DNA of 64,000 nt from Rhizophagus irregularis (Eukaryota): contig NC_089432.1 in NCBI RefSeq assembly GCF_026210795.1, positions 5,332,001 through 5,396,000 on the forward strand, written 5' to 3'. A program made the position numbers and the translations under genes. This document shows, one piece after another, positions 1 through 56,001 of this stretch (position 1 is its first letter; each line of letters opens with the position of its first letter). The notes beneath the pieces were generated by a model. The model worked only from the letters and a program-made list of their open reading frames with translations. It did not search any database and was not told where the DNA came from.

Positions 1-2354
1 AAGCAGGATACATTGGTGAACTAGTCAATCAAAATATGAATGTTATCGTCAGAAGTCTACGACCTGTAGCATATCGTATTTTGCATTTAATTGTTCATGC
101 TCTTATTGGAGCATCTGAACCTCCAACTGCCCTTGCTTTCCTTCGAAAAAATAATCAAACTGCTACTGATTCTGAAACATATTGTATTAACCATATTCGA
201 AATGATTGGGAAATTCTGAAGAAACTTCTTTATTGCTCAGATGATGTATATATCTTTTTTTATTATTATTATTATTTTCTTTATAATCTTATTTAATAAA
301 ATAGCTAACTAAAACAAAATTTTATTATCTTAATCAGAATTTGGCGTTAATATTCCATTCTCTAATTTCCTTAATGATGGAAAGACCTCCCATTCCGAAT
401 CAAACGACATATCCTGAACGCATAAACTGGGAGACATCATTTCAAGATAATTATGTTACACCTCTTACTGAGAATATAACGAAAACGGCAACTAATTATC
501 GTATGAAGCTAAGCGAAGCTCTAACCAAAAATAAAAAAAATAACTTAATTGAATGTGAAATTAATCAGACTTTAGTTATGGATAAGCAATATCGAAATGA
601 AACTTTACCAAATTTATGGAGAACAATTGGAACAACCAATTTTGATAGTTTCCACGCTTATTATATGAGTAACTTGACAAGAAACAACGATCATCCATTT
701 CTCTCTGTCTTTTTCAAATATTCAAAGCAGTTAGAATTACTTAAACATCTTTTACCTATTGTAAAATTTGCTCAACTTCTGAATAACAAACTTGGATATC
801 AATTAACCAGACAAACGGCAAAAGATATGAAATTCATACAATTTATAAAAGAGGAATCCAATGATGGTAGAAATAAAGAAATTTTCAATAATTTGAATAC
901 CGCTTTTAATGATTTTAAACTTGGTTGGAATACAGTAATACCTTTCGTAAATCGATATCAATGTCATGAACTTCCCAATGAAAAACCAGTCATAGGTTAT
1001 AATCTTCCAGTTATTTATGGTTTAGTGGAACCGAAAGATGCAGGAATTTTCTTATGCGCTATTTTAGATTATTTAATTGACTTGCAAAACCAGTTCTTAC
1101 AAGAAGTTATAGTAATTTCACCTGGAACTTGTAAATCTCTCAAGTTTTTAGATGAAATTACATTTGATATCGAACTAGCAATTTCGAAAACAGAACCAGT
1201 TATACCCAATGGATATTGCCTTCAATCTCTACGCCTTGATCATGTTCGTTCAGGAAATATTATAAATTTTGTTTGGGATGATGAGATTCTTACATATAGT
1301 CAAAGAAATTTAGCAATTGCAAGAGGAGAAGATATTGTGTATGATTTGACAAAAATTGAAGCGGAATTGGCAAACATTTTAGTTTTCGAGAAAGTTTATA
1401 TAGAAACTCTACCAGATTCACAACTATATCTAGAATGTTACCCGTATCACATGGAATTATTTCAAGGATATATGAGAATTCTTAGTGATATTAAGAATCA
1501 AATAACCCAAGAGCCAATCCCGATCGAAAAAATGAATTCATTAGGCTTTTCTGAAAATTCCGGTTTAGAATATGCTTCAAAATCGACTATAGATAACTCA
1601 TCAGAAATTTTGTCATCATTGGAAATACTTCTATGTTTCGTCAAGCGTACAGCAGTTGGAAATGGCGACAGATCTATTAAAGATTTTGTTTTACAATGGA
1701 TGAAACTATCATCATTGTATGAACATAGAGAATTCTCTAAAATTTTAGATATTGATTTAAGACTTAAACACTTGGTGTCATTATATGAACTCGTCGAAGA
1801 ACAAGTTGCCGATATTAAAATTAAATATATTCATGAAAAATATCAGGAAAAACTTTCAACGGATATGGAGGCGGCAATAATGGAATCTTTAGGTTTTGAG
1901 CAGCAAACGACAACGAAAAAAGTTATACAAGCAGAAACATTCGCATTAGCTTTAAAACGATTTATGTTACGATTTTTAACTTTAGAGGATCAAAAAGAAA
2001 CGGATCCATTAAAAATTTATTTACAAGATGGTTCATTAAATTTTTGGCCTTCAACAGTTCCAGAGGAACTTGTTGATAAATTGTTTCCAGAAAATTTATT
2101 GGTAGCTAATACATATGATGCTTATACATTCACAATGAAAAAGATTGAGGTAAGAAAATTTATAATATATATTTTTATATATTTAAATAATATTAATCTA
2201 AAAAAAATTTTTTATATATTATTAATTACTTAAGCAAACGATGAAAAAACAGAGAATCAATGATCTAACAAATCTAAACCAAACGGAACCTACAGCTAGC
2301 AGAAATACATCAAGAAGACCAAGAAATGGCCGACTTAGATTTGATGCGACGTAG
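1..2354 (+). CDS. 3' end of an RNF213-like E3 ligase paralogue (exons <1-245, 338-2149, 2235-2354); the 5' part lies outside the window
   Basis: The translation aligns almost residue for residue with the last three exons of the 8368-25916 gene (HIRNDWE, FNDFKLGWN, IVYDLTKIEAELANILVFEK, ALKRFMLRFL). Intron positions are the same (GT at 246 and 2150, AG at 337 and 2234). Stop TAG ends at 2354. Confidence 0.9.
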
Positions 2355-6014: not shown

Positions 6015-6900
6015 GGCGTATCCGATCTTAGTATAGTATGATTTTGTAAAATAGTATGTAGCATTTTTTTTAGTACGTATGATTTTAAATCGTACATACT
6101 ACTTTGATTATTAAATATAGAAAAATTGTACGTATATAGTGAAAAAAAAATCATACATACGTGTATAAATCATACTTTTTTACCAGCCTCGTCATACACT
6201 TTTTCGATAGTGCTCGCTTTCTTTAAAATATGAAAACAAAAATTTAAATAAATATTTTTATTTGCTATACACTTACATTAGCATGTCATTATTTATGTGC
6301 ATTTATCTTTAAATAAATAAATTATAAACACAACCATATTTAAGCTTTTTCATGTTCTTTATTAAATTTTAAATTTTTTTAATTTTTTTAATTTTCTTGC
6401 AGAACTTAAATGAAAAAAATTGAAGCTGCAAAATACTAAATTAATTATAAAAAAATTATATAGGATTTCTTGCCTACATTAATAATTCTAATCCTATTTC
6501 TTACTAAATTAGCCAATTTTAAAGCTTCGATAATTTCTTTTACATCTGAGAGAGCTATTTCCATTTTATTAATTATTTAATTTTTAATTGATATAATTAT
6601 TTTAATTAATGTGAAATTTATTTATATTTATGTAATAAATTTTAAAAAAAAAATAAATCTCGAACTGATAAAAAAATCAGGGAAAAAATATTATATTTTT
6701 CGTATTTAATATATTGTGTAATCGTCGTCTGTGTAAGCGTTGATCAAACTTCGAATTATCATAATTATGTGTTATTTGTATGTAATAAAAAATTTAAATC
6801 ATACTATCATACATACATATTATATAATAAAGTATATATGTACCATAAAAAATCATACATACAAAGTAAAAATCCCACAAACATACTAACTTACAAAATC
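6015..6900. repeat. Dispersed ~0.9-kb non-coding repeat; inverted copy at about 61025-63300, interrupted by insertions
   Basis: Long reverse-complement matches, e.g. ttcttgcctacatt/aatgtaggcaagaa, aagctttttcatgttctttattaaa/tttaataaagaacatgaaaaagctt and gtatgattttgtaaaatagtatgtag/ctacatactattttacaaaatcatac. Confidence 0.85.
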
Positions 6901-8367: not shown

Positions 8368-11300
8368 ATGGAACAAGAAATAAATGAGGATGATACCGTA
8401 TCCAATAATGATCAAGAGTCATTATTAGATTCTTCTTTACAAGTTCCACGTTCCGATATAGAAAAAAATTTATTTGCAAATAAAGTAAGAGATATGATGA
8501 ATAATGGATATTCCTTTGGTAATGATAAAATAGTAGATGAGTCGATTGACACAATTCATAATAATAATGTGCATAATTCTGATATCGATGAACAAAATGA
8601 TACCTCTAATTCCGAAGATGATGATACCAGCGACTCTCAGGTCAAGAATTATGATGACATTCCATCTACACCAGGACATAATCGTATTGATAAGGAAAAG
8701 GAATATAAATCTAATTATAGAGAACAAAAGGATGAACTTACTCATCGTCCAAATTATCAAGATGATGATTATAATTCAACAGATGAAGAGACTAAGAAGC
8801 AAAGTTCAAAATCTAGTTACGCTGTGGGAAATCGACGAGAGACGTCAGATGATGAAAATGACGATAACGATCATGATGACAATAGTGGTGATGATTCAAA
8901 TTCTCGTTATGTTGTGAAAAATAGAAAGAAATTTGAAATTTCAGATGACAATGGCAATGACGATAACGATTTTGATGACAATATCGGCGATAATCAGGTC
9001 AAGAACAATGATTATTATGAAGATGACATTCCATCTTCATCAGGACATAATCGTATTGATAAGAAGGATGAATTTACTCGCCGTCAAAAAAATAAAGATA
9101 GTGATGATGATTCAGCAAATGAAGAGATCAAGATGCCAATTTCAAAATCTCGCTACGCTGAGAGAAATCGACGAGAGACGTCAGATGATGAAAATGGCAA
9201 TGACGATAACGATTATGATGACAATATTAGCGACTCTCAGGTCAAGAATTATCATTATCATGAAGATGTCATTCCATCTACATCAGGACACAATCGTATT
9301 GATAAGGAAAAGGAATTTGAATCTAATTATAGAGAACAAAAGGATGAATTTACTCGTCGTCTAAATTATCAAGATAGTGATGATGATTCAGCAAATGAAG
9401 AGATCAAGATGCCAATTTCAAAATCTCGTTATGTTGTGAAAAATAGAAAGAAATTTGAAATATCAGATAATGACAATGGCAATGACGATAACGATCTTGA
9501 TGACAATATCGGCGTTAATCAGGTCAAGAACGATGATTATTATGAAGATGTTATTCCATCTTCATCAGGACATAATCGTATTGATAAGAAAAAGGAATTT
9601 GAATCTGATTATAGAGAACAAAAGGATGAATTTACTCGTCGTCTAAATTATCAAGATAGTGATGATGATTCAGCAAATGAAGAGATCAAGATGCCAATTT
9701 CAAAATCTCGCTATGTTGTGAAAAATAGAAAGAAATTTGAAATATCAGATAATGACAATGGCAATGACGATAACGATCTTGATGACAATATCGGCGATAA
9801 TCAGGTCAAGAACAATGATTATTATGAAGATGACATTCCATCTTCACCAGGACACAATCGTATTGATAAAAAAAAGGAATTTGAATCTTATTATAGAGAA
9901 CAAAAGGATGAATTTACTCGCCGTCAAAAAAATCAAGACGGTAGTGATGATTCAACAGATGAAAAGATTAAGAAGCAAATTTCAAAATCTCGTTACGCTG
10001 TGGGAAACCGAAAGATATCAGATGATGAAAATGAAAACACTAATAATGATAAAGAGCCTGAGTTTTATGGAGAACAAATGGACGAAACTACTCGATATCC
10101 AAAGCATAAAATTGGCCAACATCTATCTATGCATGACGGTAATCAAAAGAAATTAGACAATACAAGTTACTCCTCTCAAGACGAAAATGATAATTATGAA
10201 GAACAAATAGATGAAACTACTCGATATCCAAAAAATAAAAACAATCAAAGTCTATCTATACATGGCGGTAACCAAAAGAAATTAGTTAACACGAGTGACT
10301 CCTCCCAGGACGAGAATGATGATTATGAAGAACAAATAGATGAAATTAATAGTTATCCATATAATAAAAATGGCCAAAATCTATCTACGCATGATAGTAA
10401 CCGAAAGAAATTAGATAACACGAGCGATTCCTCACAGGATGAGAATGATGATTATGAAGAACAAATGGATGAAACTGTTGAATATCCAAATAATAAAAAT
10501 AGTCAAAATTTGCCTATACACGGAGGTAACCAAAGAAAATTAGACAATATAAGTGACTCCTCGCAGGATGAGAATGATGATTATGAAGAACAAATGGATG
10601 AAACCACTAGATATCCAAGATATCCAAAAGATAAAAACAATCAAAATCTGTCTATGCATGGAGGCAACCAAAAGAAGTTAGATAACAATAGTGACTCCTC
10701 CCAAGATGAGAATGATGAATATAAAGATAGTGACTTTTTGCCTTCAGGTCGTGCTAATAAGAAAAAAGAACGAGAGCTTTATGAAGAACAAATAGATGAG
10801 ACCACTAGATATTCAAAAAATAAAAACAATCAAAAACTGTCTATGCATCAAAAGAAGTTAGATAACGATAGGGACTCATCCCAAGATGAGAATGATGAAT
10901 ATAAAAATAGTGACTTATTGCCTTCAGGTCGTGCTAATAAGAAAAAAGAACGAGAGCTTTATGAAGAACAAATAGATGAGACCACTAGATATTCAAAAAA
11001 TAAAAATAATCAAAAACTGTCTATGCATGGAGGTAACCAAAAGAAGTTAGATAACGATAGGGACTCATCCCAAGATGAGAATGATGAATATAAAAATAGT
11101 GACTTATTGCCTTCAGGTCGTGCTAATAAGAAAAAAGAACGAGAGCTTTATGAAGAACAAATAGATGAGACCACTAGATATTCAAAAAATAAAAATAATC
11201 AAAATCTGTCTATGCATAACGATAACCGAAACGAATTAAATTATAATGACAATGTTGGCGATTCCCAGAAATATAGTCGTTCCAATAAGCGAAATGAGTC

Positions 11301-14300
11301 CGAATCTTTTTATGGAGGATCAAGGAAGGAAATCACAAATAATCAAAATAATCAAAGTTCGTATAGAGATAATAATAAAGACTACTACAACAGTAATAAT
11401 CAAGAAAAAAATCGGAAACCAGATAATAGTAGTTCTATATGGCCTGGCGTGATTAATAGATGGATGCCTGGTAGTAATAAGGACGAGAATGAGATCAAAG
11501 TTATTTTCCATGTTCATTTTCCGGAAGGTATTGATAAAGTTGGAAACCCCGTAGTTCTTGGTAATGTAAAAGAATTAGGATCTTGGAAAAGCCCTATTGT
11601 AAAACTTATTCCACAAAATCGAACATATTGGCGATCCGACCAAATTGTTATTTCATTATCTTCTGTAGTTGAAGAAATTCAATATAAGTATGCCATTCAC
11701 ATACCTAAATCCATATTTCGTGGAAGAGAAGAAAGAATTGTATTTGAAGGAAGTAGTAATAGAGATGATCGCATGTTGAATATTGGAAATAATCAATTTG
11801 ATATATTCATAAGCAATAATCAATTACCTCGTTTATATCCTAATACTATACGTGATTTTGCTTTTGTGGGTTACATTTATAATTCTATAAAAGCTGACAA
11901 CCTTAAAGCTAAAGTTATGGAATACCAACATTTATTAACTCTTCATCATGATTTTACGATCCGTGCATCAAACCTCGATTTCATTGTCGATCGCATTGAT
12001 AATAGACTAAACAAAGAAAAACGTCTTTTCTTATGTTTTCTCTTAGGACAATATACTTCAAGGAAACAAGGCACATTCTATGAGCTACAAAATAACTTTC
12101 AATCTGGGTTGTTGCTTGATGCACTCGATGAATATAATCGAGATATTTTACCTTCAAACACTAAAAACCAGATGTATAGTGCCATTTTAACTTTAGTTCA
12201 GCATAATGCTTTTCGGATGCAATTTAATTGGGTCCTTATTTTTACAATTGCGTCAGAAGTTGATTCCAATTTTGATTTCATTGATTATTTAAAAAATTTA
12301 AAATATTCTGATGACAAATTATTAGCAAACTTCATTAAAGCAATTAAAATGATCAGACCTTATATTGATGGCATTGAAGCTGAATCTTATATTAAGATTG
12401 CAAAGGTAATTTTTAATATAATTATTGTTTTCTGATTTCTGATTAGTCTTTTTTTTTAAAGAAAAAAATTTATCTTTTTGTAGTGGTTAATTCAATTATG
12501 CCATAATATGGATTACCTTATTGTACTTTGGAATGATATTCTCTTACATAACAACGAACTTGACAAAGTCATTTTTAAGTGTTTTATTGAACGAATTCGA
12601 GAAAGTATCTCTCGTGATGATGCTGTTACCTTAGAATACCATTTTAAAAGACTCCCAAGAGATTATCGATATGATGTGTCCGAAGTTTTCCGGTCCCACA
12701 TATTACAATTACTTAAAGGTTCGAATAGAGATTGGACCGAGAAAAATATCACTGCTATTAAAAACCTCCTTCAAGAAGATAGTCTAAATTGGGGCAAAGA
12801 GGAAATTATTCAATCATTAGATTTAATATCTCAATCTAATACTTTGGAATTATTAAACATATTTCCTGTAATTTTAGATGATTGGTTTAATGGTAATTTT
12901 TCCGACACTAAAGAAAAAAAGATACCAAAAATATGCATGACTTGGTTTAAAAATCTTTTAATTAAAATTGACACGGGTACAAGCGCAAGAAATAGAAAAG
13001 AAAATAACATTGTGCTTTCAGTATTTTTACATTTAGAACGCATACACCCTTTGCTTGGTCATCGAAAAAATGTTTGGCAAAGTTTAACAACCATTGCTAT
13101 TGATAGAGTTAGAGTATGCTCGGAACCCCAAATATTTGGCGCGACAAAGTTTATAATTAAGATGAAAGAACAAGCTATTCAAGTATTATTTTTAGATTTG
13201 ATAAAAGAAATGCTAAGTAAGGCCGTTCAACAAATTAATGATCAACTAATAAATAAAATTTATATAATATGTGATTGCAATAAAAAGACTTTGGAAGTCC
13301 CAAACACGTAAGTTCTTTAAAAAATTTTATCTTTTTGTTAAATACAATTTACTTATATGTAAATATGTATATATATTTATTTATTAATTTATAATTATTA
13401 GGGTGAGCGAGGAAATTTTGTATCATATCATTACTAGATTACAAAACCAATCATCCGCATCTGATCCTTCAGAACATCATTTAAATATTCTAAGAGCAAG
13501 TCAATTTTGGAGCATTATATTACGTGCTACTGGAAATGTTACAAAACTTCATTCAAATCCGTTTGTTCAACGTGTTAAAAAGTCTATCAATGAACTTGGC
13601 GGATTACTTCGTGAAAAGAAGATTGATATACAATTGTTACAACAACTCTTAGAGTTTTCTGATGAAAAATTATTTCAACACTTCGATGCAGCTGTTTCTA
13701 AAAAGAAAGCCATAGTTGATGTGATTGTATCTCGAGATGAAATTGCAGAACTTAGAAAACTTTGTGGCAACTTTCAACTTCAACTTGATATACTTTTCAA
13801 ATTTTATAACGAATTTTGTCCAGTTTCTCAAGTAACCGATGTGGATGATTACATTCAAGACGTAAAGAAACATATGGCAAGTTCAAATAACGTGTTTTTG
13901 AGAGAAGTGTTATCACCAGATTATTGGGCGTTCCATGAAAAAACTTTGATCATTTCAAGACATTGCTACAAATATATTAAATCTCGATCTTTTCGAAATA
14001 TCTTTGAAGATTGTATCAAGAAAGACACTGCTGCAACAAATGTAGACTACATAGCGCAAAAATTAATACCAGCTGTTTTCAAAGAATACAATACTTACTG
14101 TGAACAATTTAAGAAATGGGAAAAACTCGAAGTTTCATATGCATCTTTGTTCTGGCATAATGTTACAGATGTTAACATGGAACTTGATTTAATGGATTAT
14201 AAAGGCTATAAAAACCAAGAGTTTCTACAAACAATTAACCATCTTTCAAAAATTCCTCATTGGATTAACCGACTTGAGGAGTTAGACATAGTTGTAAAAC

Positions 14301-17300
14301 TTTTTAAAATAGCACATGATAAAGATGATTGGTTAATTAAATCACTTAAAATTTTGAGTGACGGACATATGAAACTTAATCAAATTAATGATTTTTTTAA
14401 TTATCTTAATAACAATATTTCTAATGTTGATCAAGAATGTTGGAAGTTGATAAAAGAGCTATCAAATGCTGATGAATTTATAAGTTTTTTAGAAGAAATT
14501 GTCGAACACGATATTAAAAATTTGATAAATGGTGTGGATGACCATTCGGATGAAAGATTGGTTCAAGAAGATACAGTTTCATCACTTATTCAAGTCAAGC
14601 AAATTTTATTGCCATTTATGAATAAGAATAAAAGAGATGATATCGCTGGTTTTTTAGCTTCACTATCAAATATTATAAAAAAGAATCCTACTTTAGGGGA
14701 AAAGATTGCATTATGTAACAGCTGTCATATGGCGTTACGAAATATGTATAAGAACATTTCAGATCGTGGTGAAGTTACTAAGGAAAAAATCAAAAATGCC
14801 GTACTGAATGGGAGTTATACTTTTGGACGTGATGAAAAAGAAGACAAATGTTTTGTTACATTAAAATATACTTCTAGAACTTTTAAATCAGAGATGTTAA
14901 TGACATATAATATGAATGAAATCTTGGATTTACGTGGACGAGCTCTTTTAATTGCGAAACCTAAGATAAGCGTAATAAACGATAAGGATGATGAAATTTC
15001 AAAAAATATTTTGGATGAATTTACTGTTCAAGTCGATATTGCACAAGAAATAATTAACGTAGTGTCCGTGTTAATGCAATTGGGACATTTTGATTATAGA
15101 AGGTTCGAAAATGAATTAATGGGAACAGATAGAATGAAAGATTATTTAAAATTCTTAAAGAATGAGCTCAAAAACTGGTAAATATATTATTTTCCCTTCC
15201 TTCAGAGCGTGATATATAAATGAAAGATTATAACATACTTCATTTTTTACCAATTGCAGGCAAACTATAGTTGATCACGCACAAGAACAGTGTTATTATT
15301 TAACATTCTTCCCTGCTCGTCATATTTTGGCATTCCATGATTATTTCACATCGGAAAAACTAGATGAAGAAAATGAAGAAGAATGTAAAACATTGGTTAG
15401 ATTTGTGAACAACAAAGCTAAATTACCATTTCGAAAAGATGTTCAAGGAATTTCACGTGGATCTAAAGATTATCGCAAGATTCTTTGTGAGATTGGAAAT
15501 GAATTAGAAAAAATTTTTAAAAAAATTCCAAAACAATCGCGCGGAGGACTTAAAGCTGTTGGAACTACCGGACAACGCGCAACGTTGGATATAGTTAAAA
15601 AGGGTAAATTATTTATTGCTGCTTGTGCTGACAAAACAAGAGTTCCAAACATTATTATGTCATTATATGCCAATAATGGAAATTATCCAGAACCGTGGCA
15701 ACTCTTAATATGTACTACTTCAACTACTATGGAGGAATTAACTATCTTCATAAAAAGAAGTTTCTTTGCATCAAAAAATGGATATGAAAATCACTTATTT
15801 TGTATTGCAAATTTAGAATTATTAGACTTTGAATTACAATATGATTTAGTTAATCAAATTAGATCAATGCGAGATCAAAAAGATTTTCTTCTAGCGCTTA
15901 TTTGTTACAGAGAAAATGGAATTCATCATCACATTTTAGATCAATTTTCTTCAGATGTCGTTGAAACCAACGGATTAAATAATGTAGCTATGAGAGGAAT
16001 TTATAAGGAATTGTGTAAAAATGTTATATGTATTTCTTCCGACTTATCGGGACAAGGCAAAACTGAATGGATTAAAGAGGATAGTTTCAATAAAAAGAGA
16101 TTCCCACGTAGCTTTTTAATAAGTGATGATATGGAATTTGGCAGACTTGTACGCCAATTTAAAGAATGTAAACTCCGACCTGCAGAAAGTTTACATATCA
16201 ATATAGTATCATCTAACTTTCCTGGAGACGTCAATATGTTTTTATTTGAATTATTAACTTTGGGTATAGTCTCTACTAATGTTAATATAGCTTGCCTACC
16301 GCTTTCAGAAACACCTACGTATATATTTATCGAAATAGCTTCAACTACTGAACAATATTTACTTAATTCTCTTCCTATGGCAGGATATTTATTGTCCAAG
16401 CATTTAACTTGGGATATTAAAAGTTTGAAAATCTCTCAAGATATTACTAGTCCAATTCAGGTTACTTGTAATTATTTGAATTTATTAGATCTTAATGAGA
16501 TAGATACAAAAGAGATCCTTTTTCGGACGGATGATGCAATTAAAGAACCGTTACCAGTGGAACGTTGTCAAAACCTTATTGAGAAATATTTCTTTAACGA
16601 AAACAACAAAGACATTTCCTCATTTAGATTTGTTGAAATATTTGTTAATGTTCTAGCAGATCAATTAGTTCGATTTTCATCAAGTTTATTCTTTACAGTA
16701 GATAATCTGAGATTAATGGTAAAAGAAACTACTAATATTAGAAAACTTATATTAAAAACCTTAATGGATGGTTCAAAAGATTTTGCAACTAGATCTATTA
16801 AAACAAGAGAGGCACAATTGGAATCTACAAATACTGAAGATGAAAACGCTCGTCTTGGTACAATTGTTCAATGGGACGACTCAAATCATCTTATAGTATT
16901 TTTCAATTCTCAAACTCCCGATACAATATCTGCCTTATATCGTGACAGAACTAAAGTTCACGAAAATGTTAAGACTTTATTAAAAAGTCAAGTAATTGGA
17001 GATAGAACAAAGTGGGAATTAGATGATTACAATTCGATGTCTACGGATGCTCTTCTTGTGAAGTTAGAATATTTAGCGCGAAGGTCGACGGAAAAATTAA
17101 ATATTTCTGAATACGCTTTATCTGGTGATAACCTAATAAAGATGGCCTTAATTCTTTTAAGAGCACGTGCGAATATTCCAGTTATAGTTTGTGGTGAAGC
17201 AGGTTGTGGAAAGGTGATTTTTTTTATTATAATTGTTATTTTCATTATCATTATTTTTTTTTAAAAAAAAATTTTTATATCTCTTATAGACAAGTTTGAT

Positions 17301-20300
17301 TGCCTACTTGGCTTTGATGGTTGAAGTTCAATTCCAGTCTCTTAACCTTCATGCCGGAATTGATGAAAAAACTATTATGATGTTTATGGATGATTCTTTG
17401 GAAAAAGCAGAAAAAGGCGAGATTTGGCTATTCTTTGATGAGATCAATACTTGCAATTATATAGGTCTACTCTCTGATTTAATATCTCATCGAATGCTTA
17501 ATGGAAAATTAATACACCCAAATATTCGTTTATTCTCCGCCTGCAATCCATATCGCCTTCGTACAAAAACCCAAAGTGAGGCTGGTTTAACAAATAGGGT
17601 TAAAAAATTTGAAGAACGAAGTAATCTTGTTTATCAAGTCAAACCACTTCCTGATCAAATTTTAGATTATGTTTGGGACTATGGTATTCTAAAACCAAAA
17701 GATGAATATAGATATATTCAAATTATGGTAGAAAAAGAACTGAAAAATTTAGCACATCCCGTATTTGCGGAACTTTTATTTGCTTCACAAAATTTTATTC
17801 GAAAAGTTGAAGAACCATATAGTGTGAGTCTACGTGATGTCAAGCGAGCTATAAAATTGGTGATATTCTTTTATAAATCTCTTCATAATCGTCCTGCTTA
17901 CAGATATGGACATGTATATCCACCGCCTGGAAATCCAACCATATTGATTAGATCTTATGTTCTAGCACTTAGCCTTTGTTATCATTCTCGGTTATATGAA
18001 CAAGATTTACGTAGACAATATCGTTATGAAATGGGACAAATATTACACAATCACAACGCATTTGTAGGAGAAAATATGTTTTCTAAAATTATTCGTGAAG
18101 AACAAGAAGATTATATTAAGAGGATGCGATGTCCACCTAATACAGCATATAACGAAGCTTTATTAGAAAATGTTTTAGTTATGATCGTATGCATCTTGAC
18201 AAAAATCCCTCTGTTCCTTATTGGAGCACCAGGCTCTTCAAAATCTTTAGCAATTCGTCTTATAAGCTCAAATTTACGTGGAGCCGATTCATATGATAAA
18301 TATTTTAGAAATTTACCACAGATTTATTTAATTCCACATCAAGGTTCTTCATCTTCAACTTCTGATGGTATTATCAAAGTTTTTGATAAGGCGAATAGGT
18401 TTCAGGAAACAACTTCCACTCAATTTCCTGTTATAAGTGTTGTTTTACTTGATGAAGGTAGTTTCATTTATATTTAATATATTACTAAGTTTTTCGCATT
18501 ATTATTATTTATAATATTTTCTGTCTATCATAATTTTTCTTTTTCTTTTATATGTCATTCTAAAGTTGGTTTAGCTGAAACAAGTCCTTACAATCCGTTA
18601 AAAGTACTTCACTCCTTGCTTGAACCAAGTTATCCAGCTACAGGGCCAACTGTTTCAGTGATAGGAATATCTAATTGGCGCTTAGATAACAGTAAAAGTA
18701 GTCGTGCACTACTTGTTCAGAGGTACATCTAAATAACAATCATTGTATAATTTACAATTTCACTATGTAGTATGTACACTTATATTTTCTTACGTTTTTT
18801 GCAGACCACAATTTGATTTGGATGATTTAGTTGATACAGCTGAACGTTTATTAAATAAAAGAGTTGTCAGATCTCAAAGAGGGGCTTTAAGACCTTTAGC
18901 TAAAGCATATTTGAATTACGAAAAACATGGACAATCTTTGCCTAATTTCCACGGTCTTCGTGATTATTATGCGTTGGTTAAGCGACTTTCATTATGTGAA
19001 ATGACTCCAGAGAATATTCAAATGGCATTATCCCGTAATTTTGGAGGAACAGAGAATCATGTCAAATTATGCGAACTTTATTTTGGATATGTTTTGAAAA
19101 TGTTTAATAATCATAAACCATGGTTATATAAACAAATTCCAATTGAACAATTAATTACTTCAAATTTAGATGATTCTGATGCACGTCACTTAATGGTTAT
19201 CGGTAAAAGTGATTCAATTGTGAATTTGTTGACTTATCAGTTAAGAATGAGAGACTTGGATCCTGTTGTTATTTTAGGATCTCAATTTCCCGATGATCGG
19301 GATGATTATTATTATAGTGTTTTGAGGAGAATCATGGTAACAATTTATAAGAAATATTCTTTCTTTTACCCACATTATGTATAAAACTAATTTTATGATT
19401 TTAGATGTGCGTTGAAACAGGTAGACCATTGATTCTAACAGACTTGGAAATAATTTATGGTGATTCTTTTATTTGTTATCTTAAGTATAATAATTATTTA
19501 TATTAAATGATTTTTTATATTTCAATAGGGAGTCTTTATGATTTATGGAATCAAAATTACATCGTTGTGGGAAGTAAAGATAATGTCAAATACTTTACAA
19601 GAGTTGCACTTGGAGCATATGCTAATCCTATGCTGTAAGCGAATTAATTCATTAAATTTATCGTATATATTGATTATTTTATTTTAAAGTATTTTAAATA
19701 ATAATAATGAATTTTAGTTACGTTTCGCCGAATTTTAAATGTATTCTTGTCATGGATGAGAAGAACATGGCTTCAGCTGATCCTCCACTTCTTAATCGGT
19801 TTGAAAAGCAAAAAATGTCAATTAATGACACTCTTAATAATAAACAAAAATTACTTGTTGAAAATTTAGGTGATTGGGTAAGAAAAATGTCGACTCTGAT
19901 TGGAGTTAATCCAATAACTCAATTACGTAATAAATTCACCCAGAAGAATCTATTCATTGGATTTGATAAAGATGAAACCTTACAAAGTTTAATTATTGAC
20001 ATCACAAAGAATAATCCAGAAGCAGATAATGATGAAATTTTAGAAAAATGCAAGGAATGTTTAATTGCAACAGCATCTTCTGACGGAGTTGTAAGAGCCG
20101 AACAATCAGCTTTAGAAAGAGATGAAGTTGATCGATGGAAACAGATTTATTTCCACAAACAGCATCACAATAGTCTTTATGATTATTTTGCTAATCAAGA
20201 AGATGCGTTATCAGATCCTAATGGACATTTAGTGATTATAAATACATTTTCTAATATCAATACGGATGTTAAGTCTTGTTTACAAGAACTTGCAAGTTGT

Positions 20301-23300
20301 CAAGTAGATAAATTGTCGATTTTCAAAACTGAAGCTCAACTTTCAAATCGGGTAAGTCAAAGCAATGATTTAATAAGTTAATACATGCTTTCTTAGGTAA
20401 CTTATTACAACTCCATACTTATAGGTAAAACACTTCTGGTCAGAATCAACCGATCAAATGTTGATTCTTCAATGTGACTTAACTACCGTTAATACTGGAT
20501 GTATTAAACTAGCCAAATTCATTATTGAGCAATTTCGAAATGAATATATATCAAAGAGAGATCAAATGGAGCGGGATATGCCTACGAAGCATGCATGTAT
20601 CATTCTTCATATTCATCGAGATCAGGAATCCACTTTTACATCTTTTAATTTCATGTGCGGTTGGAAACAAATGACTATTGAAACATTATCAGGAAGTGAC
20701 GTTCCTACATCAGGTCTCCTAGATGGATCTTTAACTCGTATTGTTAATTCTACTTATCCATTCGAGAAAATTTTACAACAAGAACTCTTATGGTGTTTAT
20801 CATGTATGAAATATCCATCGAACGACAAGTCAATCAATCATATAAAGTAAGCGACATTATTTATTTGTATGATATTTAATAATTGCATTTATTAAGAATT
20901 TTTTTTTTTCCGCATTAAATTATTTTTTAGGACATTAAACGAAAAAATTCTAAAACATCCAATATTTATTGAATGTTTGAAAAAGAGAGTCCTTGAATGG
21001 GCTGAAGAGAATTCTACAAGTGACTGGCAATATAAGATAGCATCAAATAAACAAAATTTATATCCATACCCTTCATTTTCTGCAGCACTACAAGCTCACG
21101 TTAGAACACTTTTTAGAACACCGATAGCGCGGATTTTATGCGCTTTAGAAAGATTATCGGCGATAAAAACATTTTTCTATGTTTCTGATCAAACAAAGTC
21201 AAAAAAAGGAAACTATGAGAAGTTACTTAAGTTTTGGGAACAAATTTATGTAGACGAGAAAATAATAAAAATTGAAGATATACAAAATCCAAAACCTGAT
21301 GGATATAATATGCCGGCAGGAAGTTTGCTCGATCTTGAATTTCCTTTTTCATTTTATTATATGAAACAAATTGATAGTTTTAAAAGACATTATGAAGAAG
21401 AAATATCGATGTTACAAAAGGATGATGATAAAATTGATGACGAAACCAATGAACTTTATGATGACGTAATCGAGGATCATTTAAAAGATTTTAAAAATAA
21501 TCTTCTTACGTCGATTCCGCAATTAAAAAATTCACCTCTCGAATGGGAATGGGCTTCGGAGCTATATTTTAATGACTTTGTTACTGTTATTGCGTCAAAA
21601 GATGGTGAGACAAAAAATAGAAAAATGTTAGCATTAATCTTAAAGTTACTCATTGGTGCCGATAAAATGCGCCAACCAATTTTCCTACACGCATATTGGT
21701 GGAAAAATGCTAACGAAGTTTTGGCTCAATTGCAATTAGCTCAAATGTCTCCAATAATTATTAAAAATATTGAAAAACAAGGAAATTCTATTGTAAGGGG
21801 AAGTATAGAAAAATATCTAGTTAAAGAAGTGACAAAACTAATGTTACAGCGAATTTGTGGAAATTTTGAAGTCGCAGAAAATGCTCATTTGATCGATAAA
21901 TGGCAGCATGATGTAACAAAAGTATTATCTCTTGTTAATAAGATAACACGAGCAAAGAATTTACCGGATCTTCAGTTGTTACGTATTATAAACGATCTAG
22001 TTGCAACGAAGACAATTCCTTTAGAAAGTATTAGAGAAATTGTTCAACTTGGATTAAGTTCAGACGAGCAAGAAGTTCTTTCCGAGGAATTTATCAACAC
22101 TGTAATTGATAAGCTAGATAAACTAGAACAAAATGAGAAAAATATAATTCCAAAAAGATCATTTATCATGAGATGCCTTGCATTGATTCCTATCGAATCA
22201 GATGTACTTCTAAGTTTTTATAAGAAGTTATTCTCGAATGAACCTTTTCCATTAATGGGTGCAATCATTGAGAGGGTATTTATTAAAGAAGACTTAGAAA
22301 ATCAGGATATATTCTTTACAACACTTACAGATTTCGATGAAGCTATGAGGCAATCTACCCGGTTAAATATTATTAATGAATGTTTAGGAGATTTAAATAC
22401 AAACATGACTACTTTATGTTGTGATACCATTGAACAAAGCTTTTTTATGAATGAGAAATTGGAAAATTTAGCGGCTTATTGTGGATCGGCTCTTGAAGCT
22501 TTATATAAACAAGGAAGGCCATCATTACAAAAAATAGTCTCTATTGCGTTGCTTAAAGAATTCGTTCGTCGATTCTGGGATAGTTTTCTTCCGAAAAATA
22601 AAAATAACCCCATTGTATATGATAAGGCAGAGGAAAACAATTTTGATAATGAAATAATTAATCAAATCAACAATATTTTGACTTTTTCTCATCCTTTGAT
22701 TCATTCTCTCAAAATTTACTTTTTAAGAGATTTATTTCGGAGAGGTTTTTCAATTGATGACATTAGACGATTTTGCGAAGCTCAAAAAAATGTTTTGCCG
22801 TGGCTTAGAACTTTCAATTGGGAAGATACTAAAGAAAATCGTTTATCTGATAATCCATATTGTAATTTACCCGAATATAATGAAGCAGAAAACAGCTTTA
22901 TGGCCCTCTATAGTATAGGAAATAAGGCACCTTTCCAAACATATATCCAACAAATGAAGCAGAATATGACTTTGACAACAAAATTATCTTTAATGGGGCT
23001 CCTCTTTGTACGTCTTCATGCATTAAGAGCTTCAAGAGAATGGCGACATTCAGAAGTGCAATCGGCTGATTTCTTGACCAAAGAGATTACTGGAATGAAC
23101 TTATCGAATTCATTTAAAACAATTGCAACAAATATCCTATCGAATAAACAACCTTTACTCCAAATTATCAATCCGGAAATTAATAATACCGATTTGATAT
23201 TAAAATCCGTTATTGCACATATTATCGCATTTCATGCATCGATTGAGCCGAATTCATCTCAACTTGCAATGTATTTACACAATTTACAAGATTGTCAGAA

Positions 23301-25916
23301 TAAGTTTATTTTAACGTGCATGTCAGATATGGAATCAGTATTGTTAAATGCTATTAATGAAAAGGTTACAAGATATGTCTGTAAATGCGGTTTTAAATAC
23401 TTTGTCGCAAATTGTGGCAATGTGGTCCATGCTAGTAAATGTCCAAACTGTGGAAATACAATTGGAGGAAATGCCTATAATCAACCAGCAGCGGGTAATA
23501 CTAGGCTTGATGTTGCACCAGGTGGTCAAGCATCAAATGATCAAGTAGGATATATTGGCGAACTAGTTAATCAAGATTTAGGTCATTCCGTCAGATCTTT
23601 TCCACCTACAACATACCGTATGCTACACTTGATTATTCACGCCCTTATTGGAGCGTCTTCACCTCAACCTGCCCTTGTCTTCCTTCAAAAAAATAATAAT
23701 ATCGCTACAGATTCTGAAAAATATTGTATGGACCATATTCGAAATGATTGGGAAGTTCTCAAGAAACTTCTTAACTGTTCAGATGTGGTATTTAGAAAAA
23801 TTGTTTTTGTTATTTTTTAGACTAATTTGAAATAAAATTATTAACTAATAAATTTTATAATTTTTATTCAGAATTTGGCGTTAATATTCCATTCATTGAT
23901 TTCTTTGATGATGGAAAATCCTCCCTTACCGAATCAACAGACAAATACATCTGCTGAACGCATGAATTGGGAAACCGTATTCCATAATAATTATGTTACA
24001 CCACAAACTAAAAATGTTAACGAAACAGCGGCTAATTATCGTATGAAATTAAACGAAGCTCTAACCAAAAATAAAAAAATTAACTTAATTGAATGTGAAA
24101 TCAATCAGACTTTAGTTATGGATGAACAATATCGAAGTGAGAAGTTACCAAATTTATGGAGAACGATTGGAATAATTAACTTTGATAGTTTTCGCGCTTA
24201 TTATATGAGCGATTTGACAAGGAACAACGATTATCCATTTCTCAATATATTTTTCAAACATTCTAAACAAATAGAATTACTAAAACATCTTTTACCTATT
24301 GTAAAATTCGTTCAAATTTTGAATGCCAAACTTGGATATCAATTAACAAGACAAACGGCAAAAGATATGAATTTCAGACAATTTATAGAAAAAGAATCCA
24401 ATGGTGGTGAAAACGATGAAATTTTCAATAGTTTAAATACCGCTTTTAATGACTTTAAACTTGGTTGGAACACAGTAATGCCTTTTGTTAAACGATATCA
24501 ATGTCATGAACTTCCCAATGATAAACCAACAATGGGTTATAATCTTCCAGTTATTTTTGGCTTATTGGAACAGAAAGATGCAGGAATTTTCCTATGTGCA
24601 ATTTTATATCACTTAATCGAAATACAAAATAGATTCTTACAAGAAGTTATAGAAATTCCACCTGGAACTTGTAAATCTCTCAAGTTTTTAGATGAATTAA
24701 CATTTGATGTCGGACTACCAATTTCAAAAACAAAACCAGTTACACCCAATGGGTATTGCCTTCAATCTATGTATCTTGATCATGCTCGTTCAGGAAATAT
24801 CATTAATTTTGATTGGGATGATGAAATTCTTGCATATAGTCAAAGAAATTTAGCAATTGCAAGAGGAGAAGATATTGTATATGATTTGACAAAAATTGAA
24901 GCGGAATTGGCAAATATTCTAGTTTTCGAAAAAGTTTATATAGAAACTCTACCAGATTCCCAATTATATCTTGAACCTTTTCCGTATCACATGGAGCTAT
25001 TTCAAGGATGTATGAGAATTCTTAGTGATATTAAGAATTTAATAGCTCAAGAGCCAATTCCAATTGAAAAAATGAATTTATTAGGGGTCTCTAGTTTACA
25101 TTATGCTTCAAAATTAAATTTAGATAATGCGTCAGAACTTTTGTCATCATTGGAAATTCTTTTATGCTTTGTCAAACGTACTGCGGCCGGGGATGGAGAA
25201 AAATCCATTAAGGAATTTGTTTTACAATGGATGAAATTATCATCTTTGTATGAACATAGAGGATTTTCTAAAATTTTGGATACTGATTTGCAACTTAAAC
25301 ATTTGGTTTCTTTGTACGAGCTCGTTGAAGAACAAGTTGCCGATATTAAAATTAAATATATTCATGAAAAATATAAGGAAAAACTTTCAGCGGATATGGA
25401 GACGGCAATAATGAAATCATTAGATCTTGAACAGCAAACTACAACGAAAAAAGTTATACCAGCAGAGGCATTCGCTTTGGCTTTAAAACGATTTATGCTA
25501 CGATTCTTAACTTTAGAAAATCAAAAAGAGAAGGAACCATTATATGTTTATTTGCAAGATAGTTCATTAAATTTTTGGCCCTCAACAGTTCCAGAGGAAC
25601 TTATCGATGAATTGTTTCCAGAAAATTTATTGCTGGCTAATACGTATGATGCCTATACGTTTACAATAAACAAGATTGAGGTAAGAAATTTAATAAATAT
25701 GTATTAACTGTTAATATTTAAAATAATTTTAACTTAATAAATTTAATTTGTATTTATAAATTTTTTAAGCAAACGATGAAAAAACAGGCTAATTTTACTA
25801 GAAATATAGTTAATAATCAAACCATCAAGTCACCTAATAATCAAAAGGAACCTACTGCTAGCAAAAGCACACAAAGAAGGTCAAGAAAGATTCTATCAAA
25901 GTATGATGCGATGTAG
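8368..25916 (+). CDS. RNF213/mysterin-like giant AAA+ ATPase / RZ-finger E3 ubiquitin ligase, 14 exons, 5492 aa
   Basis: Exons 8368-12405, 12484-13307, 13402-15177, 15260-17213, 17290-18457, 18566-18722, 18805-19336, 19405-19459, 19529-19634, 19718-20351, 20425-20846, 20931-23787, 23872-25680, 25770-25916. All introns are GT-AG and the exons sum to 16479 nt in frame. RNF213-type motifs appear in order: SGQGKT, GEAGCGKT, WLFFDEINT, ACNPYR, LVYQVKPLP, VSLRDVKR, IPLFLIGAPGSSKSLA, VVLLDEVGLAE, PLKVLHSLLE, GISNW, GLRDYYALVK, RNFGG, GSQFPDD, SLYDLWNQ, PLLNRFEK, then an RZ-like finger. Confidence 0.93.
8600..10040 (+). repeat. Intragenic coding repeat family A (about 94 aa / 282 bp units, D/N/E/K/S-rich)
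   Basis: The anchor tcaggtcaagaa (QVKN) recurs near 8637, 8995, 9237, 9519 and 9801, with the last two spacings 282 bp. The peptides GHNRIDK and ISKSRY recur. Confidence 0.9.
10065..11220 (+). repeat. Intragenic coding repeat family B (43-aa units, then 60- and 63-aa units)
   Basis: EQ[MI]DE...SSQDEND units are spaced 129 bp (about 10072, 10201, 10330, 10459, 10588). Near-identical 180 and 189 bp units follow at about 10783, 10963 and 11152. Confidence 0.9.
11491..11810 (+). other. CBM20-like (starch-binding fold) domain within the RNF213-like protein
   Basis: VIFHVH...PVVLGNVKELGSW...KL...YW...IQYKYAI matches the CBM20 pattern V-x-G-N-x-x-x-L-G-x-W ... W ... Y-K-Y. Confidence 0.75.
23371..23500 (+). 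other. RZ (RNF213/ZNFX1)-type zinc finger, variant
   Basis: RYVCKCGFKYFVANCGNVVHASKCPNCGNTIGGNAY follows the RZ layout Y-x-C-x-x-G...CG...C-P-x-C-x-x-x-I-G-G. Confidence 0.8.
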
Positions 25917-26219: not shown

Positions 26220-26528
26220 TGTCCGGAGCGAAGCAAAGGATCCTTGCGCACTATGAAAAAAAATCGATCACGTGAATTTCTCTGTCCGCCACGTGATCGT
26301 CACCCAATGAAATCGCAAATTTTAGTTTTTCTCTCCGGACTTACAACGATTCCCGTTTCCTAGTGTACAGTAAAACTAGGAAACGGGAACCGTTGTAAGT
26401 CCGGAACGAAAAACTAAAATTTGCCGATTTCATTGGTGACGATCACGTGGCGGACAGAGAAACTCACGTGATCGATTTTTTTTTTCATAGTGCGTAGACA
26501 TATATTGTCCTTCGCTTCGCTCCGGACA
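26220..26528. repeat. ~310-bp near-perfect inverted repeat (foldback or MITE-like), ~145-bp arms, ~10-bp loop
   Basis: Left arm tgtccggagcgaagc...ctctgtccgccacgtgatcgtcacc...cccgtttcctagt pairs with right arm actaggaaacggg...ggtgacgatcacgtggcggacagag...gcttcgctccggaca. Confidence 0.9.
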
Positions 26529-35642: not shown

Positions 35643-36529
35643 TTATTTGTTTTTTTGTTTCTTAATTGTTGATTTTTCATTCTCCAACCTATCTTTCAAT
35701 AAACCAGCAATAATCTCCAACACTTGTTTTACTTTTTTTTTTAGGTCTGATTCTTCCTCTGAATTTTTTAAAACAGTCTCTCGGAAAGTTTGATCATGAT
35801 TGGTTCTTTAAACGAACATGAAATTTTTTCTGGACTGTATGATAAAAAATACCAATCTGTTGCTGTTGTAATGGCACCATAAAGGTATTCGCAATCCCAA
35901 AAAGCAACACCTGCCTTACGTTTTTTCCTGTTAGTTTGTAGGGCACTCTCACATTGAATAACATTTTGAATGAAACCTTTATTAACCAAGTATCGCTTGC
36001 TTTCAGTAATACAAATCAGTTCCTCAAGTGATATTATTGTATAATCAACACGGCCACAATTTTCATCACCCACGATTTGAAGTTGAGGAAGCAAACTAAT
36101 TTCTTTATCAGTTTCTCTCCTGGCAATATGAATTGCAGCGTGAAGAATTGCCGAAATATACTCATTACGCATTGCCTCGTTACTATCAGGAATTAAAGTT
36201 CCCAAGTTGCGCAACTTACGTTTTATATCATTCATACATTGTTGCAATTCATCGTCATCATTGGTGAGTGATAAGGAAGACGGTGTGAATTGAGGAACAG
36301 CGGATAAACTGCTACCATAAATATTAAACTTACCTCCTTTCAACCCATAACTTCGAAATGTTTCTTCTGTTATTTTGAAAAAGATACTACCAGTTATTTC
36401 TTGATCGCGAAGAATATCAAAATATTCTTCTTTAATTTGGATATTGTTTCTTAAAAATTCGATGAGAGATTCAGTATCATATTTATAAATATCATCTAAG
36501 TTTTCTTCAAAAGTGGACATAATGGACAC
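35643..36529 (-). pseudogene. SAM-like header plus PD-(D/E)xK restriction-endonuclease-fold (Crinkler-like) gene with a 3' frameshift
   Basis: The N-terminus YDTESLIEFL...ILRDQEITGSIFFKITEETFRSYGLKGG is SAM-like. The C-terminal GRVDY...ICITESK...QNVIQ...YGAITTATDWYF is REase-like. After the gagaga run near 35780 another frame continues ETVLKNSEEESDLKKKVKQVLEIIAGLLKDRL...KKQKNK* to 35643. Confidence 0.7.
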
Positions 36530-37275
36530 ACTTATGTATTTGTTTGTTACACCATATTTGGCTTGTTCAAAATCCGGTTTATTTATTTTTGATTGGGCTG
36601 ATAAGTGACACGAAAATTTTTTTTTTTAGGATCGGTGGATTAGCGGATATGCAAAAAAAATCTCCAAAATTTTATAACATAAAAAAATCGTACATCATGG
36701 TCGTATGCGTCGTCTTGATAGTGCTTTTCTAACAAAAATGCCGATTTTTTTTTACAACTTTACCTTCTCGTAAACAAGACGATTTGAAACAAGTTATGGG
36801 TAGTCCTTTTTATTTTTTTTCGATGTTTTGAAACGACATTAACGCCCATTTTTACTTCTTTTTTTAGGAGAATTACCGAAGTGTTCTTTTGGTTCTCTTT
36901 TATTATCAAATAAAAGTAATAATTTTTTTTACAAGGACAACTAAGTTATGGGTGGCCTTTTTATCTTTTTTTTATTAACATAACATTTAGTATATAAAAA
37001 TAATTATTTTTAAAAAATAAAATTTTTTAAAATGTAATTAAAACAATAATGAATTTGAATTTAAATAAAATTCTTTTATGATCATAGAAAATTACTCAAA
37101 AAAACAGTTTTTTTTGTCTAATCAACAACTTTGTAAAAAATTTTATTCTCTATAAATTTTTTTTTTTTTTTTAAATTTCACGGCGTTGTTCTCTACAGTA
37201 TAATAAATTTTATAATCGAAGTATATAAAATTTGAAATATAAATCTACATCTTGTTTTTTAAAAATTTTTTTTTA

Positions 37276-55496: not shown

Positions 55497-56001
55497 TTTT
55501 TTTTTTATTTTGTATTTTTATTTTAAGGAAGGAGAATGATATTGATATACAAGTTAGGAATTTAAAGCGCGTATTTATTTATGTTGATGTCGAGCGAGTC
55601 GCGTGATTCGTGTCAGATGACAATGTGACAATTGATTAGTCATCCAGACGCGTGATTGTACAAGCCACTTAACTACTTAAGCCATAAATTAAGCTATTAC
55701 CAAAATCTTCAAAAACTCGGATATGTAAAATTACATTATTTACATTATTACGTTATTCGTTTTATCTATTCGAACGCTCTAAACAATAACCTCTAACATT
55801 ATTACATTTTTTATTCTCGCGTATTATTTTATGAAAATATAAAACAAAGAATTTTGCTTTCAAACTTTTTATGTAATACTTAATTTTTCTGCAATATCAA
55901 TCATGAAAAAATATCACATGCAAATAGAAAAAAATGTTACTATAAAATAACATGCAAATTTCTTTGAATTTGAAAGATCTTCCTTATCTTCCTGCTTAAA
56001 G

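What the first reader, a model, noticed from the sequence alone, without database searches (positions are those of the whole stretch)
8368..25916. Intact 5492-aa RNF213/mysterin-like giant E3 ligase in an apparently fungal (AM-fungus-like) genome
Seen: the large ORF fragments in the track plus four small exons it misses splice through 13 GT-AG introns into one frame. Splicing restores split motifs such as Walker A GEAGCGK|T and Walker B DE|VGLAE. Established: animal RNF213 combines a CBM20-like domain, a dynein-like AAA core and an RZ finger; it ubiquitylates LPS on cytosolic bacteria and associates with lipid droplets. Inference: the whole architecture is present here, suggesting an animal-like cell-autonomous immune machine in a lineage known to host endobacteria and to depend on stored lipid. 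I know of no functional description in fungi, although databases may already label such genes RNF213-like.
Basis: partly seen in the sequence, partly recalled or inferred. Interest (0 to 1): 0.9.

Follow-up and report, generated by a model that had tools for sequence, protein, structure and literature searches.

The report
Fungal RNF213 paralog, variable catalytic finger
This is a real, spliced and transcribed 5,492-codon gene of the mycorrhizal fungus Rhizophagus irregularis for a giant relative (likely a paralog, not the direct counterpart) of the human immune ubiquitin ligase RNF213; it lacks the RING finger, and its predicted catalytic zinc finger differs sharply from that of the near-identical copy next door, which would fit a defence role that is still untested.

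Summary
In detail: 14 exons and 13 GT-AG introns give one 5,492-aa frame. RNA shows 11 of the 13 joints; related protein models support the other two. The public R. irregularis model of this gene is identical but for two extra in-frame 'introns' that the RNA contigs contradict. CBM20, stalk, AAA core and E3 module match RNF213 in order by profile or predicted fold; no dynein or midasin chain is hit.

- There is no RING.
- The RZ finger keeps the catalytic Cys4717, but the zinc His is replaced (likely by a fourth Cys) and the general-base His is Tyr.
- Trees reject grouping with canonical animal RNF213 (AU p 0.009 and 0.012). The gene belongs to a second subfamily also found in protists, a fern and invertebrates.

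New here: a tandem copy 6 kb upstream is 96% identical in the AAA core but 48% in its His-type RZ finger, and His/Tyr switches at least 6 times across fungal relatives. Best reading: an ATP-gated transthiolating ligase, probably for defence; the link to LPS or endobacteria is untested. This scan found RING-less relatives before, in Jimgerdemannia and protists.

The parts
8368..25916 (+). Whole gene: 14 exons (8368-12405, 12484-13307, 13402-15177, 15260-17213, 17290-18457, 18566-18722, 18805-19336, 19405-19459, 19529-19634, 19718-20351, 20425-20846, 20931-23787, 23872-25680, 25770-25916), 5,492 aa
   Evidence: model; 11 of 13 joints in RNA; protein support; public model P0354 identical but for two gaps and one residue beside a gap
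8368..11480 (+). Acidic D/N/S-rich, likely disordered N-terminus (about 1,040 aa, net charge -94) with in-frame tandem repeats of 282, 129 and 189 nt; repeat number differs between close paralogs
11491..11805 (+). CBM20-like beta-sandwich (aa about 1042-1146), followed by stalk helices
   Evidence: Pfam CBM_20 E 0.001, below the curated cut-off; model pLDDT 90; Foldseek hits to laforin-type, STBD1 and glucoamylase CBM20 chains and mouse RNF213 9i1i, E under 0.001; paralogs pass the Pfam cut-off
11806..15177 (+). Helical stalk (aa about 1150-2200)
   Evidence: Profile-profile match to animal RNF213, probability 98%, E 8e-14
15260..20846 (+). Dynein-like AAA core. AAA2 P-loop K2480; AAA3 Walker A K2864 and Walker B E2915; AAA4 Walker A K3182 and Walker B E3253
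   Evidence: PDB RNF213 E 6.5e-45 for exon 5, 9 of 9 hits RNF213; motifs; profile match E 3e-145 and 4e-28
20931..25680 (+). E3 module and C-terminal domain, with no RING
   Evidence: Predicted fold of exon 12 matches the human RNF213 E3 module, Z 16.9, rmsd 15.0, 675 aligned, next hit Z 7.2; the bat RING lies largely opposite gaps; RING pattern in 0 of 131 fungal-clade proteins against 93 of 118 controls
23380..23478 (+). RZ finger: C4706, C4708, C4726, C4729 (predicted zinc ligands), C4717 (predicted nucleophile), F4710 at the mammalian zinc-His site, Y4738 at the general-base His site
   Evidence: Pfam ZnF_RZ-type E 3.8e-13; alignment and spacing
3..2354 (+). 3' end of a tandem paralog (last 724 codons, same two last introns), stop 6,013 nt upstream of the ATG; it equals public model P0357, whose RZ finger (just outside the window) is His-type
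   Evidence: 724/724 identical to P0357; dN 0.116, dS 0.427 against the window gene

Best explanation
The gene encodes a RING-less giant of the RNF213 family, likely from a second, ancient subfamily, that is predicted to work as an ATP-gated transthiolating ubiquitin ligase and most likely serves cell-autonomous defence in the fungus. Proposed steps: (1) CBM20 and stalk dock on a glycan-bearing or membrane surface (inferred from RNF213); (2) ATP binding at AAA3/AAA4 switches on the E3 module (motifs shown; coupling inferred); (3) E2~ubiquitin hands ubiquitin to Cys4717 in a four-Cys zinc finger (residues shown; chemistry inferred); (4) ubiquitin passes to a target, which would be marked for autophagy or degradation (inferred). 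The tandem copies keep a near-identical motor but carry different catalytic fingers, Tyr-type here and His-type upstream (shown), which would give them different acceptor chemistry or activity (inferred).
For: Collinear homology over CBM20, stalk, AAA and E3; fold matches. All four Walker residues are present; in mouse RNF213, Walker A mutants lose E3 activity and the RING is dispensable (bioRxiv 2021.05.10.443411; PMC7311170). The catalytic Cys is kept in 67 of 71 parseable fungal-clade RZ fingers. Purifying selection acts between the tandem copies, dN/dS about 0.27. Defence-like signatures: several paralogs per genome annotation, tandem duplication, RZ the lowest-identity 65-aa window in 7 of 7 nearest relatives, with a CBM20 window among the five lowest in 3 of 3 that cover it, and at least 6 His/Tyr changes on the backbone tree.
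Against: No activity, substrate or regulation was tested. The zinc His and the general-base His both matter in mouse RNF213 and both are changed here. The mouse E2-docking residues could not be matched. The 7 relatives are not independent (about three finger types), and the RZ dip is absent in 7 older fungal pairs (rank 0.26-0.91), while 2 of 13 vertebrate pairs also show a dip (rank 0.03). An RZ-only tree does not reject the backbone clade (p 0.625), so cassette swapping is not shown. Expression appears without a known challenge (run conditions unknown). No Mortierella or Rhizopus protein was among the 120 listed of 1,431 hits, although these fungi also host endobacteria (PMC10386755).
Confidence: 0.5

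Rival explanations
1. The same ATP-gated ligase, but with a housekeeping job: it senses energy state and tags glycogen or lipid-droplet surfaces for turnover in a fungus that lives on host-supplied carbon.
For: The CBM20 fold is like those of the glycogen-handling proteins STBD1 and laforin-type phosphatase (identity of 4rkk as laforin is recalled). Mammalian RNF213 responds to the ATP/AMP ratio and is tied to lipid droplets. The gene is transcribed in several runs. The subfamily is found in free-living protists and a fern.
Against: A housekeeping role does not predict many paralogs, tandem copies or a catalytic finger that diverges fastest.
Confidence: 0.22
2. The Tyr-type copy is a weakened or inactive ligase (decoy, sensor or scaffold) that works beside the His-type neighbour.
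For: His-to-Ala lowers mouse RNF213 autoubiquitination (PMC12075652). The family tolerates loss of catalysis: 4 of 71 fungal-clade fingers lack the Cys, and invertebrate members keep the zinc cysteines but mostly lack the catalytic Cys.
Against: The Cys is kept in 21 of 23 Tyr-type fingers (two of the 21 are models of this same gene). Tyr with Cys recurs in Jimgerdemannia, Gigasporaceae, Polarella and Andalucia.
Confidence: 0.18
3. An ancient ligase whose copies multiplied without special selection, as many AM-fungal families have; the RZ dip and His/Tyr changes reflect a loosely constrained, flexible appendix and an easy C-to-T change.
For: The RZ is a flexible appendix in RNF213. His and Tyr codons differ by one transition (genetic code). 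Many public models are partial or lack an RZ (60 of 131 had none parseable). Expansion of signalling families in AM fungi is recalled.
Against: RZ is not unusually variable in older pairs. Next to the RZ, dN doubles while dS does not (0.251/0.443 against 0.116/0.427 overall; 60 codons only, and the last 60 codons are also raised).
Confidence: 0.1

Closest known systems
Mammalian RNF213 / mysterin (PDB 6TAX, 7OIK, 8S24, 9JWG, 9I1I)
   Same: Order of CBM20, stalk, six-AAA core and E3 module; active-type AAA3 and AAA4; AAA2 P-loop; RZ finger with the catalytic Cys at the same spacing.
   Different: No RING; C-x-C in place of C-x3-H at the zinc site; Tyr at the general-base site; E2-docking residues not matched; 1,040-aa repeat N-terminus; multigene family; separate subfamily in trees (about 30% identity in the core).
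Second invertebrate RNF213-like clade (Branchiostoma P0069, Mercenaria P0072, Mya P0175)
   Same: 45% identity over AAA3-5 for P0069 and P0072, against 31-34% for canonical RNF213; same subfamily; one clade with fungi is not rejected (p 0.145); C-x-C zinc pattern where a finger was found.
   Different: No Pfam RZ in 4 of 4 scanned; catalytic Cys mostly missing.
RING-less RNF213-like proteins of Endogonales, protists and plants (Endogone, Jimgerdemannia, Pelomyxa, Paratrimastix, Andalucia, Mesostigma, Cymbomonas, Polarella, Spumella, Ceratopteris), known only as database entries
   Same: Same subfamily; mostly C-x-C fingers; Endogonales are the sister group of the AM-fungal clade.
   Different: Here a young tandem cluster with sharply different finger types.
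ZNFX1
   Same: RZ finger E3 chemistry; fungal ZNFX1-like proteins with RZ came up.
   Different: RNA helicase scaffold; keeps C-x3-H zinc site and the His base.
Dynein heavy chain / midasin
   Same: Six AAA units in one chain; dynein clusters appear as lower look-alikes in the Atlas.
   Different: No sequence hit at E 0.1; RNF213-specific loops, CBM20 and E3 module present.

Membership tests
RNF213 family (broad) | Dynein-like six-AAA core with Walker A/B in AAA3 and AAA4 and a P-loop in AAA2 | tested here: met
   K2864, E2915, K3182, E3253, K2480
RNF213 family (broad) | IR3 and IR5 signature insertions | tested here: met
   Both stretches align (IR3 about 12 aa shorter); their location was read from the mouse numbering
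RNF213 family (broad) | N-terminal CBM20 and helical stalk | tested here: met
   (weak)
RNF213 family (broad) | E3 module fold | tested here: met
   Z 16.9, rmsd 15.0, 675 aligned to 9jwg_A; profile E 1e-40 and 3e-30
RNF213 family (broad) | RZ finger with catalytic Cys | tested here: met
   Pfam E 3.8e-13; C4717 at the spacing of human C4516
Canonical (vertebrate-type) RNF213 | RING domain | tested here: not met
   No Pfam RING; pattern absent; bat RING largely opposite gaps
Canonical (vertebrate-type) RNF213 | CHCC zinc site | tested here: not met
   F4710 at the His site; C4708 is the likely substitute; metal binding not tested
Canonical (vertebrate-type) RNF213 | Cys/His catalytic dyad | tested here: not met
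   Y4738 at the His site
Canonical (vertebrate-type) RNF213 | CTD residues that dock UBE2L3 | tested here: inconclusive
   Region aligns with gaps and no clear identities; fungi conserve other hydrophobic residues there
Canonical (vertebrate-type) RNF213 | Orthology: one clade with animal RNF213 | tested here: not met
   AU p 0.009 (LG+G4, 28 rows) and 0.012 (mixture model, 23 rows); trees unrooted, long stem to the animal clade
Canonical (vertebrate-type) RNF213 | ATP-dependent transthiolation; ubiquitylation of LPS; coating of pathogens | not testable with these tools
   Needs bench work
Dynein heavy chain / midasin | Sequence affinity of the AAA core | tested here: not met
   9 of 9 PDB hits are RNF213; no dynein or midasin was placed in the trees

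The most novel reading that the evidence does not exclude
AM fungi run a diversified ubiquitin-based immune family from an RNF213 subfamily as old as the major eukaryote groups. Tandem copies share one ATP motor but vary the catalytic finger itself, switching between a Cys/His dyad and an undescribed Cys/Tyr active site in a four-Cys zinc finger, to tag different non-self molecules (endobacterial or viral) or to escape their inhibitors.
Probability: 0.22. Interest if true: 0.85.

Novelty: new variant of a known kind. Interest (0 to 1): 0.57.

Why it matters
RNF213 is described in the papers read as a vertebrate or animal protein. A second subfamily across fungi, plants, protists and invertebrates would push its origin back and show that the RING is a late insert. 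The His-type and Tyr-type neighbours are a natural experiment on how RZ fingers choose acceptors, an open question for RNF213 and ZNFX1, and the fingers are small enough to assay. For AM fungi, the family is a concrete candidate for how a multinucleate symbiont polices bacteria in its cytoplasm.

Tried and rejected
- No whole genome is held, so there is no copy count, no E2 inventory and no DNA for the upstream RZ.
- Run search: no RNA holder listed on record; raw RNA runs came as additions and were laid.
- Introns 3 and 7 and bases 8368-11299 have no direct RNA view.
- 'Several genes' rejected.
- The two extra in-frame introns of public model P0354 (aa 1167-1268, 1387-1443) rejected: X1 contigs run through both with no other letters.
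- Single-sequence search of exon 12 against PDB gave 0 hits; profile and fold were needed.
- RZ cassette swap from distant paralogs: not shown.
- The careful 40-row tree did not finish; the quick tree was used (17 of 57 rows dropped). AU tests used 28 and 23 rows. No outgroup, so no root, donor or order of events is claimed; horizontal transfer was not tested.
- The Atlas search added only mollusc- and rotifer-rich AAA clusters and dynein look-alikes.
- Zinc geometry could not be measured: model coordinates are not returned. No complex was predicted.
- Literature: 10 searches listed no paper on fungal RNF213; RNF213 + Rhizophagus gave 0, RNF213 + mycorrhizal gave 1 general review (listing only). 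Subscription papers, the original LPS paper and all supplements were not seen and may hold alignments with non-animal sequences.
- Scan notes: nothing for this genome or sequence.
Full report
Gene model. The + strand holds eight long ORF fragments between 8350 and 25707. PolyA reads and transcript-like contigs show 11 of the 13 joints and the control run shows none. Introns 3 and 7 were not among the listed rows; they are needed for the frame, and relatives' protein models cross them without gaps.

Organism and database status. Named public proteins of Rhizophagus irregularis are 99.9-100% identical. Relatives are labelled 'RZ-type domain-containing protein' or, in Gigaspora, 'E3 ubiquitin-protein ligase'. 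The kind of protein is thus in databases, though I found no paper on it in 10 searches (listed under Tried and rejected).

Architecture. Exon 5 hits only RNF213 chains in the PDB (E 6.5e-45, 9 of 9). A profile of 24 fungal proteins matches bat RNF213 in four collinear blocks, and profile-profile alignment covers CBM20/stalk (probability 78%), stalk (98%), AAA1-2, AAA3-6, E3 and CTD. The predicted fold of aa 1039-1346 (pLDDT 90) matches CBM20 domains and mouse RNF213. The fold of exon 12 (pLDDT 83, pTM 0.56) has RNF213 as its 8 best Foldseek hits and Z 16.9 to the human E3 module against 7.2 for the next. Walker residues K2864, E2915, K3182 and E3253 match human K2426, E2488, K2775 and E2845. 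The first 1,040 aa are acidic tandem repeats.

What differs. There is no RING; a RING pattern is found in 0 of 131 fungal-clade proteins and 93 of 118 control hits, mostly animal RNF213. The RING is dispensable for RNF213 activity (PMC7311170, passages). In mouse the RZ binds zinc with Cys-His-Cys-Cys and uses a Cys/His dyad; loss of the zinc ligands abolishes activity and His-to-Ala lowers it (bioRxiv 2021.05.10.443411, sections 4 and part 1 of 5; PMC12075652, passages). Here C4706, C4717, C4726 and C4729 keep the mammalian spacing, but F4710 and Y4738 stand at the two His sites. C4708 is nearly invariant in fungal fingers and also occurs in fern, algal, protist and invertebrate members, including those that lost the catalytic Cys, so it likely replaces His as the zinc ligand (inference).

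Family and phylogeny. The AAA3-4 query finds 2,614 clusters at E up to 0.001 (150 listed). Named members include Pelomyxa, Paratrimastix, Andalucia, Mesostigma, Cymbomonas, Polarella, Spumella, Ceratopteris, amphioxus and clams (30 looked up). Trees of AAA3-5 show canonical animal RNF213, a small protist group, and a large group with the fungi, many protists, the fern and a second invertebrate clade. Mercenaria has genes in the first and third groups, Cymbomonas in the second and third, which points to an old duplication. Fungi plus canonical animal RNF213 as one clade is rejected (p 0.009; 0.012 under a mixture model); fungi plus the second animal clade is not (p 0.145). The trees are quick and unrooted and the stem to animal RNF213 is long. 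Endogonales and Glomeromycotina form one clade (support 100). With Endogone as the query, 107 of the 120 listed hits (of 1,431) were named fungi, all from these two groups, and the list reached amphioxus without another fungus; this hints at a narrow fungal range but does not show absence.

The tandem pair and the variable finger. Window 3-2354 is the 3' end of a second copy, identical over 724 of 724 aa to model P0357. The two are 96% identical in the AAA core, 82% in CBM20 and stalk, 81-85% in the E3 module and 48% in the RZ, and P0357 has His where this gene has Tyr. The RZ is the lowest-identity window against 7 of 7 nearest relatives (42-65%), which fall into about three finger types and are not independent. 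Controls: no dip in 7 older fungal pairs, a mild one in P0189/P0190 (rank 0.05) and in 2 of 13 vertebrate pairs (0.03), none in P0003/P0004. Over the 721 shared codons dN/dS is about 0.27, so both copies are under constraint; in the 60 codons after the finger it is about 0.57. Of 131 fungal-clade proteins 71 had a parseable finger: 43 Cys/His, 21 Cys/Tyr, 3 Cys/other, 4 without the Cys. His/Tyr changes at least 6 times among 36 rows of a backbone tree; an RZ-only tree does not reject the backbone clade (p 0.625), so fast local change fits as well as exchange.

Mechanism. Shown: gene, expression, domains and residues. Inferred from RNF213: ATP-gated transfer of ubiquitin from an E2 to Cys4717 and on to a surface found through CBM20 and stalk. 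I rank defence first (0.5) because of expansion, tandem copies and divergence focused on the catalytic finger and, more weakly, on CBM20, where simian RNF213 is under positive selection (PMC11549300, passages). Carbon-store turnover (0.22), a weakened Tyr-type partner (0.18) and neutral expansion (0.1) remain open. The LPS link is weak. A review lists endobacteria for R. irregularis and Endogone but also for Mortierella and Rhizopus (PMC10386755, passages). The Mollicutes-type symbionts lack LPS, and the Gram-negative one is mostly known from Gigasporaceae (both recalled).

Other papers seen: bioRxiv 2025.10.14.682297 (passages; traces the ZNFX1 RZ to choanoflagellates, no mention of fungi) and PMC11573180 (passages, not informative). 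Earlier scan notes report RING-less relatives in Jimgerdemannia and protists; they are leads, not support.

Verdict: a real gene and a new variant of a known kind. The paralog status, the four-Cys finger and the His/Tyr tandem pair are the parts worth a specialist's time. Interest 0.57.

Noticed in passing
P0012, P0017, P0023, P0050, P0329 (not in window): Public models fuse a protein kinase or BTB domain to all or part of the RNF213-like protein; in P0012 and P0017 the match to the giant begins near the end of the AAA core. Could be true domain shuffling or merged gene models.
   Followed up: partly
P0069, P0072, P0175 and unnamed kin: A large invertebrate RNF213-like clade that keeps zinc cysteines at the RZ site but mostly lacks the catalytic Cys: possible pseudo-ligases.
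   Followed up: partly
P0002 against window aa 3751-4181: An older public model is identical to this gene except for 48 substitutions in one 430-aa tract and one 39-aa gap: gene conversion between tandem copies or a chimeric assembly.
   Followed up: partly
window 26247-26494: A roughly 250-nt self-complementary (92%) element about 330 nt after the stop, high depth in X15; looks like a small repeated inverted-repeat transposon.
   Followed up: no
window 6061-6796 and 61075-61730: Pieces of a dispersed repeat in inverted orientation, one copy between the tandem genes.
   Followed up: no
window 57578-59084 (-): Tyrosine-kinase-like protein kinase gene, Pfam E 7.8e-36.
   Followed up: no
window 54060-55517 (-): F-box-like protein, Pfam E 3.6e-6.
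   Followed up: no
window 35768-36625 (-): ORF with a weak SAM hit (E 0.013) and a C-terminal part that recalls Crinkler-type nuclease folds (recalled, untested).
   Followed up: no
window 50659-51852 (-): Repeat-rich 397-aa ORF with 57-nt and 30-nt tandem units, no Pfam match.
   Followed up: no
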